Of a DNA stretch of 64,000 bases, positions 52,143-56,243 are shown piece after piece. The stretch comes from a virus. Lineage: Duplodnaviria > Heunggongvirae > Uroviricota > Caudoviricetes. The notes beneath the pieces are model-generated. The model did no database searches. It saw only the letters and a list, made by a program, of their open reading frames with translations, and was not told the origin of the DNA. A program made the position numbers and the translations under genes. The number at the start of each line of letters is the position of its first letter. Within the stretch, counting starts at the first letter, position 1. The stretch is from IMG/VR virus record IMGVR_UViG_3300029415_000001. One strand, 5' to 3'.

Positions 52143-53366
52143 GAGGGCTGAAAGTTGCTCGATTACTTAAAAATAACTTTACCTAATTGGTGTAAAAAAA
52201 TGGGCGCAACAAAGCGCCCCAACAATAGAGTTTCAAATTAATAAAAAGGTAATAAATAACATGAAGTTAAATTGAGAAGAGGCAATTTTATTGCCTCTTC
52301 AAAGGTGGCATGAGGGTGCCACCTATATGCGGGCAGTGACATCACTCCCTTCCCGCATATTCTTACCTACCAAAATTAGAATTGGTAGGTCATACCAACA
52401 GCAACGATGTTGTCGGTTGCAACGCCAGATTTTTTGGTAAAATCACTTTCATCGATCAGGTTGATCTTATAGTCAACGAAAGTGGACATATTCTTGTTAA
52501 AGTAATAAGTCGCGCCCACGTCGATGTATTCAACCAGATCCTGGTTACCGAACGCACCAATATTTTCACCGCGAGAGTGTAGGTAAGCGATGGACGGACG
52601 CAGGCCGAAATCAAACTGGTATTGAGCAACGGCTTCAAAGTTTTTCGCCTTGTTCGCGATATGGTCATCACCGAAGACTGTCATATTCTGAGTTTCAGAA
52701 TAAGTTGTAGCCAGGTAAATGTTGTTTGCATCATATTTCAGGCCCGTAGCCCATACTTCAGCAGTTTTACCAGAGGCATTCAGAGGGCTGGCTTTAGCAT
52801 AGGATACCTGTCCATCAGTACGGTCAGATTTTGCATAGGTTGCAGCAACGCCAAATCCTTCATAATCGTAAGTAGCTGACAGACCAAAGCCATCACCATT
52901 AGATTCAACTTCGTCGCGGCCTTTCCAGTTGTTCACTTTTGCAGCACTATCATTTTTACCTTGATACTGCAAAGCAAAGTTCAGACCATCAACCAAGCCG
53001 AAGAAATTATTGTTACGATAGGTCGCGACGCCAGTAGCACGCTGGGTCATAAATACATCAGTCTGAGTCCAGGTATCTCCACCAAACTCCGGCAGCACGT
53101 CAGTCCAAGCGCCAACATCATAAGCTACACCGTAGTTGCGACCATAGTCGAGCGAACCATAATCGCCAAAGCGAAGCCCTGCAAACGCAAGACGAGTTTT
53201 ATCTTTATCAGAACCTTCAGTTTCAGAACGGTTACCTTTAAATTCGTACTCCCACTGACCAAAACCGGTTAACTGGTCATTAATCTGAGTTTCACCTTTG
53301 AAACCCATACGAGCATAAGTTTTATCCCCGTCATCACTAGCCGAAGAAGAGAAGTAATGCTCTGCA

Positions 53367-54695
53367 CTGATGAATCCCCTAATGATTTTGGTAAAAATCA
53401 TTAAGTTAAGGTGGATACACATCTTGTCATATGATCAAATGGTTTCGCGAAAAATCAATAATCAGACAACAAGATGTGCGAACTCGATATTTTACACGAC
53501 TCTCTTTACCAATTCTGCCCCGAATTACACTTAAAACGACTCAACAGCTTAACGTTGGCTTGCCACGCATTACTTGACTGTAAAACTCTCACTCTTACCG
53601 AACTTGGCCGTAACCTGCCAACCAAAGCGAGAACAAAACATAACATCAAACGAATCGACCGATTGTTAGGTAATCGTCACCTCCACAAAGAGCGACTCGC
53701 TGTATACCGTTGGCATGCTAGCTTTATCTGTTCGGGCAATACGATGCCCATTGTACTTGTTGACTGGTCTGATATTCGTGAGCAAAAACGACTTATGGTA
53801 TTGCGAGCTTCAGTCGCACTACACGGTCGTTCTGTTACTCTTTATGAGAAAGCGTTCCCGCTTTCAGAGCAATGTTCAAAGAAAGCTCATGACCAATTTC
53901 TAGCCGACCTTGCGAGCATTCTACCGAGTAACACCACACCGCTCATTGTCAGTGATGCTGGCTTTAAAGTGCCATGGTATAAATCCGTTGAGAAGCTGGG
54001 TTGGTACTGGTTAAGTCGAGTAAGAGGAAAAGTACAATATGCAGACCTAGGAGCGGAAAACTGGAAACCTATCAGCAACTTACATGATATGTCATCTAGT
54101 CACTCAAAGACTTTAGGCTATAAGAGGCTGACTAAAAGCAATCCAATCTCATGCCAAATTCTATTGTATAAATCTCGCTCTAAAGGCCGAAAAAATCAGC
54201 GCTCGACACGGACTCATTGTCACCACCCGTCACCTAAAATCTACTCAGCGTCGGCAAAGGAGCCATGGGTTCTAGCAACTAACTTACCTGTTGAAATTCG
54301 AACACCCAAACAACTTGTTAATATCTATTCGAAGCGAATGCAGATTGAAGAAACCTTCCGAGACTTGAAAAGTCCTGCCTACGGACTAGGCCTACGCCAT
54401 AGCCGAACGAGCAGCTCAGAGCGTTTTGATATCATGCTGCTAATCGCCCTGATGCTTCAACTAACATGTTGGCTTGCGGGCGTTCATGCTCAGAAACAAG
54501 GTTGGGACAAGCACTTCCAGGCTAACACAGTCAGAAATCGAAACGTACTCTCAACAGTTCGCTTAGGCATGGAAGTTTTGCGGCATTCTGGCTACACAAT
54601 AACAAGGGAAGACTTACTCGTGGCTGCAACCCTACTAGCTCAAAATTTATTCACACATGGTTACGCTTTGGGGAAATTATGAGGGGATCTCTCAG
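53367..54695 (+). mobile_element. IS10 (1329 bp) with 9-bp target-site duplication TGCTCTGCA
   Basis: Ends CTGATGAATCCCCTAATGATTTT and ...GAGGGGATCTCTCAG; identical 9-mer at 53358-53366 and 54696-54704. Confidence 0.97.
53474..54682 (+). CDS. IS10 transposase
   Basis: 402 aa beginning MCELDILHDSLYQFCPELHLKRLNSLTLACHALLDCKTLTLTELGRNL. Confidence 0.97.
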   Translation: MCELDILHDSLYQFCPELHLKRLNSLTLACHALLDCKTLTLTELGRNLPTKARTKHNIKRIDRLLGNRHLHKERLAVYRWHASFICSGNTMPIVLVDWSDIREQKRLMVLRASVALHGRSVTLYEKAFPLSEQCSKKAHDQFLADLASILPSNTTPLIVSDAGFKVPWYKSVEKLGWYWLSRVRGKVQYADLGAENWKPISNLHDMSSSHSKTLGYKRLTKSNPISCQILLYKSRSKGRKNQRSTRTHCHHPSPKIYSASAKEPWVLATNLPVEIRTPKQLVNIYSKRMQIEETFRDLKSPAYGLGLRHSRTSSSERFDIMLLIALMLQLTCWLAGVHAQKQGWDKHFQANTVRNRNVLSTVRLGMEVLRHSGYTITREDLLVAATLLAQNLFTHGYALGKL

Positions 54696-55062
54696 TGCTC
54701 TGCATTAACTTTGCCGTACAGATCCAGTTTGTTACCGTCTTTGTTATAGATTTCTGCCGCTTGTGCAGACATTGCCATCAGAACAGATGCTGCAACCGTA
54801 GAAAGTGCCACTGTAATTTTTTTCATTTTTTTTCCTTTAGATTGAACTTTTCAACAGAAAAGAAGTCACTTAGGGGAGATGTTTATCTTTTTTTGATTTA
54901 CATTTCAAGTTTTTTAAATAAATATCGAGATATTTTCGTGATCAGGATCACAAAAACACCATTGCAAACCAATTAATTATTAGGATGGTATTAATAATAT
55001 AGAGTAAAAAATAACACTAAGGCCAAATCGCAACCAGAAACAACAGCGCAGTATAAAACACG

Positions 55063-55831
55063 GGTAGTGCATCCAATTAGTAGAACATGTGTTTTTCGAT
55101 AAACGCTCCGATCACTTTTTCGTGGATCTCAACTGAGCGTGAGAAGCAGATTGTTTTTTACGAGCCAACTGCTTAATGCGGGTGCGTAGCGTCAGATTAT
55201 TACGCTCAATGCGTTGGGTGAATATTTTGCCGGTCAGATGCTTATTCTTCGCCCCCCCCCCGGCCATAGCTGCCCCTGTCATCGCTGGTGAGCATGCCGA
55301 TGTTGAAGGGTGTAAGCAGTGCCAGTAGCTCCCGGCACGCTTGATCGGTTCGGGGACCAAAAGTGTAGGCCAGTACACCGCCTGTTTTGGTGTTGTACGC
55401 GTACCAGAGCCAGTGTTGCCGGGCTTTACTGCCAACGTAGCTCCATTGCTCATCAAGCTCGCAGATAAGCGCCACATCAGCATGGGCAACAGGAGAAGAA
55501 GTTATTCGCGTTGGCGCGAGTTTTTTAAAGTCCGGATGACGGTGCTAATACCAATTTTCAGTGTCCTGGCGGTATCGCGAACCCCGGCACCATTAAAGGC
55601 CATTTCAGTGATCAGCTCTTTCATACCCGGCTTACGTGCTTGATAAGTATAAGTGAGCTGAAACACACGGTGGCAGTCACGGCAGCGAAATCTGTCACGG
55701 CCTTTAGGGTTCTGACCATGGCGGTAAACCCGAGCTAACTGACAACGGGGACAATGAATATTAACGCTGGCTATGAGATAACCTCAAAAGCCCATATTAT
55801 ACATCAGATTCAACTAATTAGAGGCATCACC
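55063..55831 (-). mobile_element. IS1-family element (769 bp), divergent and probably inactive
   Basis: InsA-like frame (…SVNIHCPRCQ…VRDTARTLKIGI…) begins with ATA not ATG; InsB-like frames (MALICELDEQW..., ...YTQRIERNNL...) split by a C10 tract at 55251-55261; imperfect terminal IRs GGTAGTGCATCCAATTAG / GGTGATGCCTCTAATTAG; no clean TSD found. Confidence 0.8.
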
Positions 55832-55931
55832 AGAAATGGCTTGCTTCCATAGCCTAAAGCAAGCCACAACACATTTACCTTAAGTACACAATTAACATAC
55901 CAGAACAGATTATTTTTGCACAATCAGGGAG

Positions 55932-56243
55932 TTAATATACGATCTGGTCTACATGATCACCAAAATCATCATCGTCGTCGTCATCATCGCCACCATCTAC
56001 TGCTGGCCAATCAACAAACCAGCCAGCGTAAAGATGCAGCGTTCGGAGAACATCACTTGCGGGAGCATCAAGGGTGTTAACGAATCCCATATAGCTATTG
56101 GGATTTGCCCCAGCTATGGCTTCAGCGATCATGTCCTCGGTAATGTCACCGGAGATAATGCTTAAACGCTCGGAAACTTCTTCATTATCATCAAATTCGA
56201 TAATGGCATTTCCGCCTAATGGCGCTGCGATTTTAATCTGCAT
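55932..56243 (-). CDS. small acidic protein with poly-Asp tract (103 aa)
   Basis: ORF track; last gene of the minus-strand darA-type operon. Confidence 0.5.
   Translation of the reverse strand: MQIKIAAPLGGNAIIEFDDNEEVSERLSIISGDITEDMIAEAIAGANPNSYMGFVNTLDAPASDVLRTLHLYAGWFVDWPAVDGGDDDDDDDDFGDHVDQIVY

What the first reader, a model, noticed from the sequence alone, without database searches (positions are those of the whole stretch)
55063..55831. Degenerate IS1-family element with a C10 homopolymer tract and non-ATG insA start
An IS1-sized element lies at the position where P1 carries IS1, but its ends are divergent, insA begins with ATA, and a run of ten C (55251-55261) shifts the insB frame. 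The tract could be a sequencing artefact, a decay mutation or a slippage-prone switch.
Basis: seen in the sequence. Interest (0 to 1): 0.35.

Follow-up and report, generated by a model that had tools for sequence, protein, structure and literature searches.

The report
Dead IS1-family insertion sequence fossil
This is an ordinary, inactivated copy of a small jumping gene (an IS1-family insertion sequence of the ISEc30 type) inherited by a lineage of P1-like phage-plasmids. Its run of ten C's is late decay in a transposase gene that was already broken, not a genetic switch.

Summary
A 769-bp IS1-family element lies on the minus strand at 55063-55831.

It is not canonical IS1 (53% identity to P1's IS1). 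It is a copy of a 766-bp ISEc30-like isoform (97.9% identity), and its ends are identical to those of intact copies.

The same insertion, with identical junctions, occurs in other P1-like plasmids. All share three older lesions: ATA for ATG, TGG>AGG (W>R) in the conserved DDW motif, and A4>A6 (+2). The tract itself forms a series: GGATGGTGC / GGGTGGTGC, then GGGGGGTGC, then G10 (window and one other assembly), then G11 (four RHB16 plasmids). No tract length from 8 to 13 restores the transposase.

The tract is therefore real, and only its exact length (±1) could be a sequencing error. It is neutral decay plus slippage in a dead gene, not a switch.

The element has no target-site duplication and replaces about 400 bp that P7, JL22 and pEC21Z048-103K carry, so it came with a deletion. 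It is not at P1's IS1 nucleotide position. The finding is ordinary and of low interest.

The parts
55063..55831 (-). Whole IS1-family (ISEc30-like) element, 769 bp, non-autonomous
   Evidence: 97.9% identical to intact 766-bp copies and 53% to P1's IS1. Pfam and NCBIfam give IS1 family.
55809..55831 (-). Left terminal inverted repeat (IRL), GGTGATGCCTCTAATTAGTTGAA
   Evidence: Inverted-repeat pair I2. Identical to IRL of intact copies. Unique in the window.
55063..55085 (-). Right terminal inverted repeat (IRR), element ends ...TTGGATGCACTACC
   Evidence: Identical to intact copies.
55502..55774 (-). insA reading frame (90 codons plus stop), otherwise intact: zinc ribbon and HTH, ATA in place of ATG at 55772-55774
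   Evidence: Translation. PF03811 and PF12759. ATG in pO177B2, Rac-SA53 and L015; ATA in all same-site copies, the Citrobacter-type copy and two small-plasmid copies checked; the ATA 55-mer matched 25 plasmid records.
55520..55526 (-). A6C (AAAAAAC) programmed -1 ribosomal frameshift motif, intact
   Evidence: The motif's role is described in PMC12428005.
55242..55525 (-). First part of insB' (-1 frame), ending at a premature TAA (55242-55244) created by the G10 frameshift. Covers DDE_Tnp_IS1 profile positions 1-72 of 131.
55275..55277 (-). AGG codon (Arg) where intact copies have TGG (Trp), in the conserved ..SDDWGSYG.. motif
   Evidence: Shared by all same-site copies and absent from every other copy examined.
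55252..55261 (-). G10 on the element strand (C10 on +). Replaces GGGTGGTGC/GGGAGGTGC of intact copies, net +1.
55154..55159 (-). A6 run where intact copies have A4 (+2 frameshift). The oldest shared frameshift; it destroys the last 27 residues of InsB'.
55077..55153 (-). Remnant of the original InsB' C-terminus (..TICFSRSVEIHEKVIGAFIEKHMFY*), no longer reachable in frame without hitting a stop
55837..55866 (-). 10-bp-stem hairpin downstream of hxr (terminator-like). The IRL abuts it, 5 nt from the stem.
   Evidence: Inverted repeat I15. Conserved in P1, P7 and JL22.
54827..55062 (-). Porin (ompC/nmpC-like) upstream region abutting IRR. No target-site duplication with the other flank.

Best explanation
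The feature is a dead, vertically inherited copy of an IS1-family insertion sequence of the 766-bp ISEc30-like isoform. It sits between the hxr/ddrB (darA-operon) genes and a plasmid-borne porin gene of a P1-like (IncY) phage-plasmid.

Proposed history:
1. An ATA-start variant of the isoform inserted just past the hairpin downstream of hxr. Insertion was accompanied or followed by loss of about 400 bp of adjacent DNA (inferred), so there is no target-site duplication.
2. Before the known carriers diverged, the copy gained TGG>AGG in the DDW motif and an A4>A6 (+2) frameshift that removes the InsB' C-terminus.
3. Later, in the window's sub-lineage only, the G-rich stretch GGGTGGTGC was converted by substitutions into a pure G run. 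The run then slipped to G10 (window, MOIY01000087) or G11 (RHB16 plasmids).

In the G10 state, InsAB' terminates 4 codons after the tract, before the QRIERNN segment that I take from memory to hold the catalytic Glu. No transposase can therefore be made, and the tract length has no functional consequence.

Shown: family, boundaries, lesions, orthology of the insertions, the series of tract states, and the absence of any restoring tract length.
Inferred: the order of events, the mechanism of run growth (substitution next to a run, then slippage), and the IS-mediated adjacent deletion.
For: 1. Family: Zn_ribbon_InsA, HTH_Tnp_IS1 and DDE_Tnp_IS1; NF033558 transpos_IS1; A6C motif with insA and insB' in 0/-1 phase.
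2. Isoform: 97.3-98.0% identical to intact 766-bp copies with 8-bp target duplications.
3. Orthology: both junctions are identical in pRHB16-C13_3 and its three sister plasmids, pECTOK-001_2, the ATCC 98082 plasmid and MOIY01000087; two IMG/VR contigs were also read through both junctions, and one metagenome contig carries the same lineage-specific lesions, though its flanks were not printed.
4. All of these share ATA, AGG and A6. The tract is GGATGGTGC, GGGTGGTGC, GGGGGGTGC, G10 or G11.
5. Simulated tract lengths 8-13 never give the 231-residue InsAB'.
6. Over 23 kb at 99.6-99.9% identity to pRHB16-C13_3, the only indels are this tract and a T8/T9 run. The assembly is therefore not riddled with homopolymer errors.
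7. Four separately assembled RHB16 isolates all read G11, and two independent assemblies read G10.
8. P7, JL22 and pEC21Z048-103K carry about 400 bp, including an isaB 3' remnant, where this lineage has the element.
Against: 1. No reads are available, so the exact length (10 versus 9 or 11) in this molecule is unverified.
2. Character conflict: a 10-bp deletion (element positions 400-409) is shared by the TOK-001/ATCC 98082 clade and by copies on small ColE1-like plasmids, but not by the window's clade. Simple vertical decay is therefore not the whole story. Gene conversion between IS copies, or a recurrent deletion, must be invoked.
3. insA remains open in all copies, so retained InsA function is not excluded.
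4. The positions of the catalytic D, D and E come from my knowledge of Ohta et al. 2002. The paper could not be read here.
Confidence: 0.88

Rival explanations
1. Sequencing or assembly artefact: the poly-C tract, or at least its length, is a homopolymer miscall, and the real element has an intact insB.
For: Long homopolymers are error-prone. Four of the five runs of 8 or more in the window differ in length from pRHB16-C13_3. The window and its closest relative differ by exactly one base in the tract.
Against: The tract is not only a length change. It needs three substitutions relative to intact copies, and these are shared with six other assemblies. G10 recurs in an independent assembly, GCA_001893395.1, and G11 recurs in four separately assembled isolates. 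Even at an in-frame length, the A6 (+2) lesion still breaks InsB'. The 23 kb shared with pRHB16-C13_3 holds only two indels.
Confidence: 0.04
2. Slippage-prone contingency switch: the G/C run toggles transposase (or a neighbouring gene) on and off by changing length.
For: A 10-11 nt G run inside a reading frame is length-polymorphic between close relatives (G10 versus G11). It is unusual for this DNA: 0.05 expected per shuffle.
Against: No length from 8 to 13 yields full InsAB' because of the downstream +2 A-run. The W>R change and ATA start add further handicaps. The tract is absent from every other copy examined and none turned up in a scan of IMG/VR. Four clonal RHB16 isolates show no length variation. 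The tract lies 426 bp from the porin start codon, and that porin gene is itself destroyed by IS10 in this window.
Confidence: 0.02
3. Non-autonomous but not inert. With both terminal repeats intact, the copy could be mobilised in trans by InsAB' from an intact ISEc30-type copy in the same cell. With insA open, it could also still supply a little InsA repressor. This is compatible with the best explanation rather than exclusive of it.
For: The IRs are identical to those of intact copies. The insA frame is open in all the orthologous copies aligned. AUA initiates at roughly 1-2% (0.02-3%) of AUG in E. coli (bioRxiv 10.1101/063800). IS1 transposase can act in trans, although less well than in cis (PMC12903888). 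Intact ISEc30-type copies are common in E. coli: matches in 1652 of 5426 complete genomes.
Against: No second copy of this defective sequence was found at any other site; all recovered copies share the same two junctions. The open insA may be chance, being only 273 nt. There are no expression data. No intact copy is present in the window.
Confidence: 0.15

Closest known systems
ISEc30-type IS1-family elements (intact 766-bp copies, e.g. in E. coli plasmid pO177B2 NZ_CP023675.1, phage Rac-SA53 KU052037.1, Citrobacter sp. BIDMC108 plasmid NZ_CP073010.1)
   Same: 97.3-98.0% nucleotide identity over the full length. Identical terminal repeats, the same insA/insB' layout and the same A6C frameshift site.
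   Different: This copy is 769 bp (+1 in the G tract, +2 in an A run). It has W>R in the DDW motif, an ATA start (shared with the Citrobacter-type copies), a premature stop in insB', and no 8-bp target duplication.
Canonical IS1 of phage P1 (AF234172, 22626-23393, between isaA and isaB)
   Same: Same IS family, nearly the same size (768 versus 769 bp), same orientation, and same ssb-hxr variable region of the P1-type genome. P1's copy is also annotated as possibly transposition-defective.
   Different: Only 53% nucleotide identity. The insertion point differs: about 850 bp versus 100 bp from the hxr stop. The neighbours differ too: isaA/isaB versus a porin gene. The two are independent insertions.
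Orthologous defective copies in other P1-like plasmids (pRHB16-C13_3 CP057733.1 and sisters; pECTOK-001_2 NZ_AP018397.1; ATCC 98082 plasmid NZ_CP034659.1; MOIY01000087.1)
   Same: Identical junctions on both sides and the shared ATA, AGG and A6 lesions. RefSeq already annotates these as split IS1-family fragments.
   Different: Tract state: G11 in RHB16, GGGGGGTGC in TOK-001, GGGTGGTGC in ATCC 98082. The TOK-001/ATCC 98082 clade also has a 10-bp deletion that the window lacks.
Homopolymer (simple-sequence) contingency loci of bacteria such as Neisseria and Haemophilus
   Same: A G/C run of 10-11 within a reading frame whose length differs between close relatives.
   Different: No tract length gives a functional product. 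The run is a derived state in an already dead gene, so it resembles such loci only in appearance.

Membership tests
IS1 family of insertion sequences | Element of about 770 bp bounded by imperfect terminal inverted repeats of about 23 bp starting GGT(G/A)ATG | tested here: met
   769 bp. IRs at 55063-55085 and 55809-55831, 18 of 23 complementary.
IS1 family of insertion sequences | InsA with N-terminal zinc ribbon and C-terminal HTH | tested here: met
   PF03811 at 2.2e-18 and PF12759 at 5e-26.
IS1 family of insertion sequences | insA and insB' in 0/-1 phase, joined by -1 frameshifting at an A6C motif | tested here: met
   TTAAAAAAC at element positions 304-312 (window 55520-55528), in the same register as in intact copies. 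Role of the motif: PMC12428005.
IS1 family of insertion sequences | Complete DDE_Tnp_IS1 catalytic domain (D, D, E) in one reading frame | tested here: not met
   PF03400 is matched at profile positions 1-72 of 131 in the insB' frame and 76-112 in another frame. The last 27 residues sit in a third frame. The sequence descends from the family but is not a functional member.
IS1 family of insertion sequences | 8-9 bp target-site duplication | tested here: not met
   The flanks are ..GCCATTTCT and CGTGTTTTA... Intact relatives have 8-bp duplications. The absence is explained by the ~400-bp deficit relative to P7, JL22 and pEC21Z048-103K.
ISEc30 (ISfinder isoform name) | At least 95% nucleotide identity to the ISfinder reference sequence | not testable with these tools
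   ISfinder is not available. Indirect support: 97.3% identity to the Rac-SA53 copy, whose GenBank note says 'IsEc30'. ISEc30 is listed under IS1 in PMC12077207.
Phase-variable homopolymer switch | At least one tract length restores an intact functional product | tested here: not met
   Lengths 8-13 were simulated and none gives the 231-residue InsAB'.
Phase-variable homopolymer switch | Tract length varies among close relatives or within a population | tested here: inconclusive
   G10 (window, MOIY01000087) versus G11 (RHB16) between lineages, but four RHB16 isolates are invariant. Within-sample heterogeneity needs reads.

The most novel reading that the evidence does not exclude
The copy may not be entirely inert. 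With perfect terminal repeats and an open, weakly initiated (ATA) insA, it could persist as a trans-mobilisable, InsA-only 'repressor' copy that damps ISEc30-type transposition in cells carrying the phage-plasmid. The G10/G11 run would then be a genuine slippage hotspot, useful as a fast lineage marker.
Probability: 0.1. Interest if true: 0.25.

Novelty: already known. Interest (0 to 1): 0.08.

Why it matters
It matters little beyond annotation. The element should be annotated as a pseudo-IS (IS1 family, ISEc30-like), not as P1's IS1 and not as a coding transposase.

Two modest uses follow:
- The shared junctions and lesions mark a rare sub-lineage of porin-carrying P1-like plasmids: 2 of 5426 complete E. 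coli genomes, plus the RHB16 plasmids and one draft assembly.
- The series GGGTGGTGC > GGGGGGTGC > G10 > G11 illustrates how a homopolymer can be born by substitutions next to a short run and then begin to slip.

Tried and rejected
1. Scans of GTDB representative genomes found nothing for the lineage-specific tract pattern and one irrelevant hit for the start-codon pattern, because that collection has one genome per species.
2. An IMG/VR scan for any copy with six or more G at the tract found none.
3. Exact-protein look-ups of the two G10-specific ORFs found nothing. The 54-residue internal insA ORF did find one more G10 assembly.
4. Ohta et al. 2002 (PMC151954), which locates the D-D-E residues, is not held. 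The placement of D, D and E therefore rests on my knowledge plus the Pfam profile coordinates.
5. I considered that P1's IS1 and this element are the same ancient insertion. Rejected: 53% identity and different junctions.
6. I considered that G10 (+1) and A6 (+2) together restore the frame (net +3). Rejected: a TAA is met 4 codons after the tract in the shifted frame.
7. I considered simple vertical decay for every lesion. The 10-bp deletion is also found in small-plasmid copies, so it does not fit and is left as conversion or recurrence.
8. The consensus promoter/terminator scan of the region gave no more than chance.

Full report
**1. What is in the sequence**

Reading 54800-56100 and the ORF table shows that the element is encoded on the minus strand. 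It runs from GGTGATGCC... at 55831 down to ...GCACTACC at 55063, a length of 769 bp. The terminal inverted repeats are 55809-55831 and 55063-55085, 23 nt with 18 complementary.

- insA occupies 55774-55502 and begins with ATA (55772-55774), 7 nt after a GAGG. An in-frame TGA lies four codons upstream, and no other start would give a full-length InsA.
- The IS1 slippery motif TTAAAAAAC is present in the expected register.
- The C run is ten C at 55252-55261, and 55251 is a G. It is the only G or C run longer than six in the 64 kb. A run of ten is expected 0.05 times per dinucleotide-preserving shuffle.

**2. Family and isoform**

The conceptual InsAB' (-1 shift at A6C) matches Pfam Zn_ribbon_InsA, HTH_Tnp_IS1 and DDE_Tnp_IS1. 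The DDE match stops at profile position 72 of 131. The next stretch (profile 76-112) is in another frame. NCBIfam gives NF033558 'IS1 family transposase'.

Against P1's own IS1 the element is only 53% identical. Against 766-bp copies that have intact frames it is 97.3-98.0% identical, with identical terminal repeats; three of these (Citrobacter, L015, and Rac-SA53 by its annotation) were also checked for their 8-bp target duplication. One such copy, in phage Rac-SA53, is labelled 'IsEc30' in GenBank. ISEc30 is listed as an IS1-family element in PMC12077207. I could not compare it with ISfinder directly.

**3. The lesions**

Aligned with intact copies, the window copy differs in four ways:
- (a) ATA for ATG at the insA start.
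- (b) AGG for TGG (W>R) in the conserved ..TSDDWGSYG.. segment (55275-55277).
- (c) G10 where intact copies read GGGAGGTGC or GGGTGGTGC: three substitutions to G plus one extra base.
- (d) A6 where intact copies read A4 (55154-55159, +2).

With G10, translation after the programmed frameshift reads ...SYGRGGGEE and stops at 55242-55244. That is upstream of the QRIERNNLTLR segment which, from my knowledge of Ohta et al. 2002 (not readable here), carries the catalytic Glu.

Simulating tract lengths 8 to 13 shows that none gives the 231-residue protein. In-frame lengths (9, 12) run into the +2 A-run and end in a foreign tail. The net +3 of G10 plus A6 does not rescue the frame either, because a TAA lies between them in the shifted frame.

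**4. The same insertion in other plasmids, and the history of the tract**

The copy with identical junctions on both sides (...GGAAGCAAGCCATTTCT | element | CGTGTTTTATACTGCG...) occurs in:
- four IncY plasmids from RHB16 pig-farm isolates (CP057733, CP057740, CP057753, CP057761);
- pECTOK-001_2;
- the ATCC 98082 plasmid;
- a draft E. coli assembly (MOIY01000087.1);
- two IMG/VR contigs, both read through the junctions.

A metagenome contig (L013) carries the same lesions and 758-bp length, but its flanks were not printed, so its junctions are unconfirmed. Sources for the rest are.

All of them share ATA, AGG and A6. The tract, however, reads GGATGGTGC (L012), GGGTGGTGC (ATCC 98082, L011, L013), GGGGGGTGC (TOK-001), G10 (window, MOIY01000087) or G11 (the four RHB16 plasmids).

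The reading frame was therefore already broken before the homopolymer existed. The run was built by substitutions next to a short G run and then changed length by ±1. That is the signature of neutral decay.

**5. Artefact or real?**

The tract cannot be a mere miscall, for two reasons. It involves substitutions shared with six other assemblies. The two lengths are also each reproduced: G11 in four separately assembled isolates and G10 in two independent assemblies.

Over the 23 kb where the window is 99.6-99.9% identical to pRHB16-C13_3, there are only two indels: this tract and a T8/T9 run at 54826-54833. The assembly is not generally error-ridden.

Across the whole comparison, though, four of the window's five runs of 8 or more differ in length from the RHB16 plasmid. 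Whether this molecule carries exactly ten C can only be settled with reads. The answer would not change the conclusion.

**6. Insertion site**

P7, JL22 and pEC21Z048-103K carry the same porin gene and the same hxr-ddrB genes but no IS1-like element. Between the two they have about 400 bp more, including a remnant of the 3' end of isaB. The window lineage lacks this stretch and has the element instead, with no target duplication. I infer an insertion accompanied or followed by an adjacent deletion.

The left end abuts a conserved 10-bp-stem hairpin just downstream of hxr (55837-55866).

P1's IS1 lies elsewhere in the same variable region, between isaA and isaB. The two are independent insertions that happen to share orientation.

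**7. The ATA start**

ATA is not private to this copy. A 55-mer centred on it, built so that any megablast seed must contain the variant base, matched 25 plasmid records; the ATG version matched 68. The Citrobacter sp. BIDMC108 copy has ATA, open frames and an 8-bp duplication, AGATTCTG.

AUA initiates at about 1-2% (range 0.02-3%) of AUG in E. coli (bioRxiv 10.1101/063800). The change is therefore a strong handicap, not necessarily a null, and it pre-dates this insertion.

**8. An inconsistency I could not resolve**

The 10-bp deletion at element positions 400-409 is shared by the TOK-001/ATCC 98082 clade and by ATA-type copies on small ColE1-like plasmids. Those small-plasmid copies lack the AGG and A6 lesions. 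The deletion is absent from the window's clade. Positions 287 and 338 show the same split. Either the deletion recurred, or a patch was exchanged between IS copies by gene conversion.

**9. How it works**

It does not work as a transposon. IS1 needs InsAB' made by -1 frameshifting at A6C, with its DDE domain (PMC12428005; PMC12903888), and this copy cannot make it.

Because its ends are intact it might be moved in trans, which is known for IS1 but weaker than cis action. Its open insA might also yield a trace of InsA. Neither is supported by any second insertion site of this defective sequence.

**10. Verdict**

This is a correctly spotted but ordinary feature: a decayed IS1-family (ISEc30-like) fossil that marks a rare sub-lineage of porin-carrying P1-like plasmids. 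The C10 tract is late decay plus slippage. Interest is low.

Noticed in passing
window 53367-54695: A complete IS10 (1329 bp) interrupts the plasmid-borne porin gene, with a 9-bp target duplication TGCTCTGCA. The transposase ORF is 53474-54682 (+) and RNA-OUT is at 53412-53481 (98.8 bits). An IS10 sits at exactly the same site and orientation in pEC21Z048-103K (NZ_CP101271.1), which lacks the IS1-like element. This is either an insertion hotspot or recombinational spread.
   Followed up: partly
window about 52376-54826 (minus strand, split by IS10): An ompC/nmpC-like porin gene lies between ssb and the darA-operon genes, as in phage P7 (nmpC) and JL22 (ompD). It is intact in pRHB16-C13_3. The ompC-ssb intergenic stretch occurs in 102 plasmid places among complete E. 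coli genomes.
   Followed up: partly
window 52194-52380 (-): A weak Rfam hit to GcvB (30.5 bits, below the gathering score of 42; E 6.8e-4) lies immediately 3' of the porin gene on the same strand. The position recalls, from memory, the IpeX small RNA downstream of nmpC in prophage DLP12. No ncRNA is annotated there in RefSeq hits.
   Followed up: partly
window 54826-54833: A T8 run (A8 on the gene strand) lies directly in front of the porin ATG. It is T9 in the RHB16 plasmids and T7-T8 followed by GCCC in P7, JL22 and pEC21Z048. This is another homopolymer that grew by substitution of the neighbouring base and differs by one between close relatives.
   Followed up: partly
element positions 287-409 (window about 55423-55545) compared with L005, L006, L022 and L024: A 10-bp deletion and two linked SNPs are shared between the TOK-001/ATCC 98082 copies at this site and copies on small ColE1-like plasmids, but not with the window's copy. 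This conflicts with the distribution of the A6 and AGG lesions, and suggests gene conversion between IS copies or a recurrent deletion.
   Followed up: partly
L021 (MOIY01000087.1) 2255-2278 versus window about 54880-54905: The draft assembly with the other G10 copy diverges from the window about 60-65 bp upstream of the porin start codon, at its contig end. Another rearrangement or repeat probably lies there.
   Followed up: no
L005 (pECTOK-001_2) and L011: In these relatives a canonical IS1A has inserted between the ISEc30-like fossil and the porin gene. The ATCC 98082 plasmid has an IS3-family element there instead. This short intergenic region is a repeated target for IS insertion.
   Followed up: no
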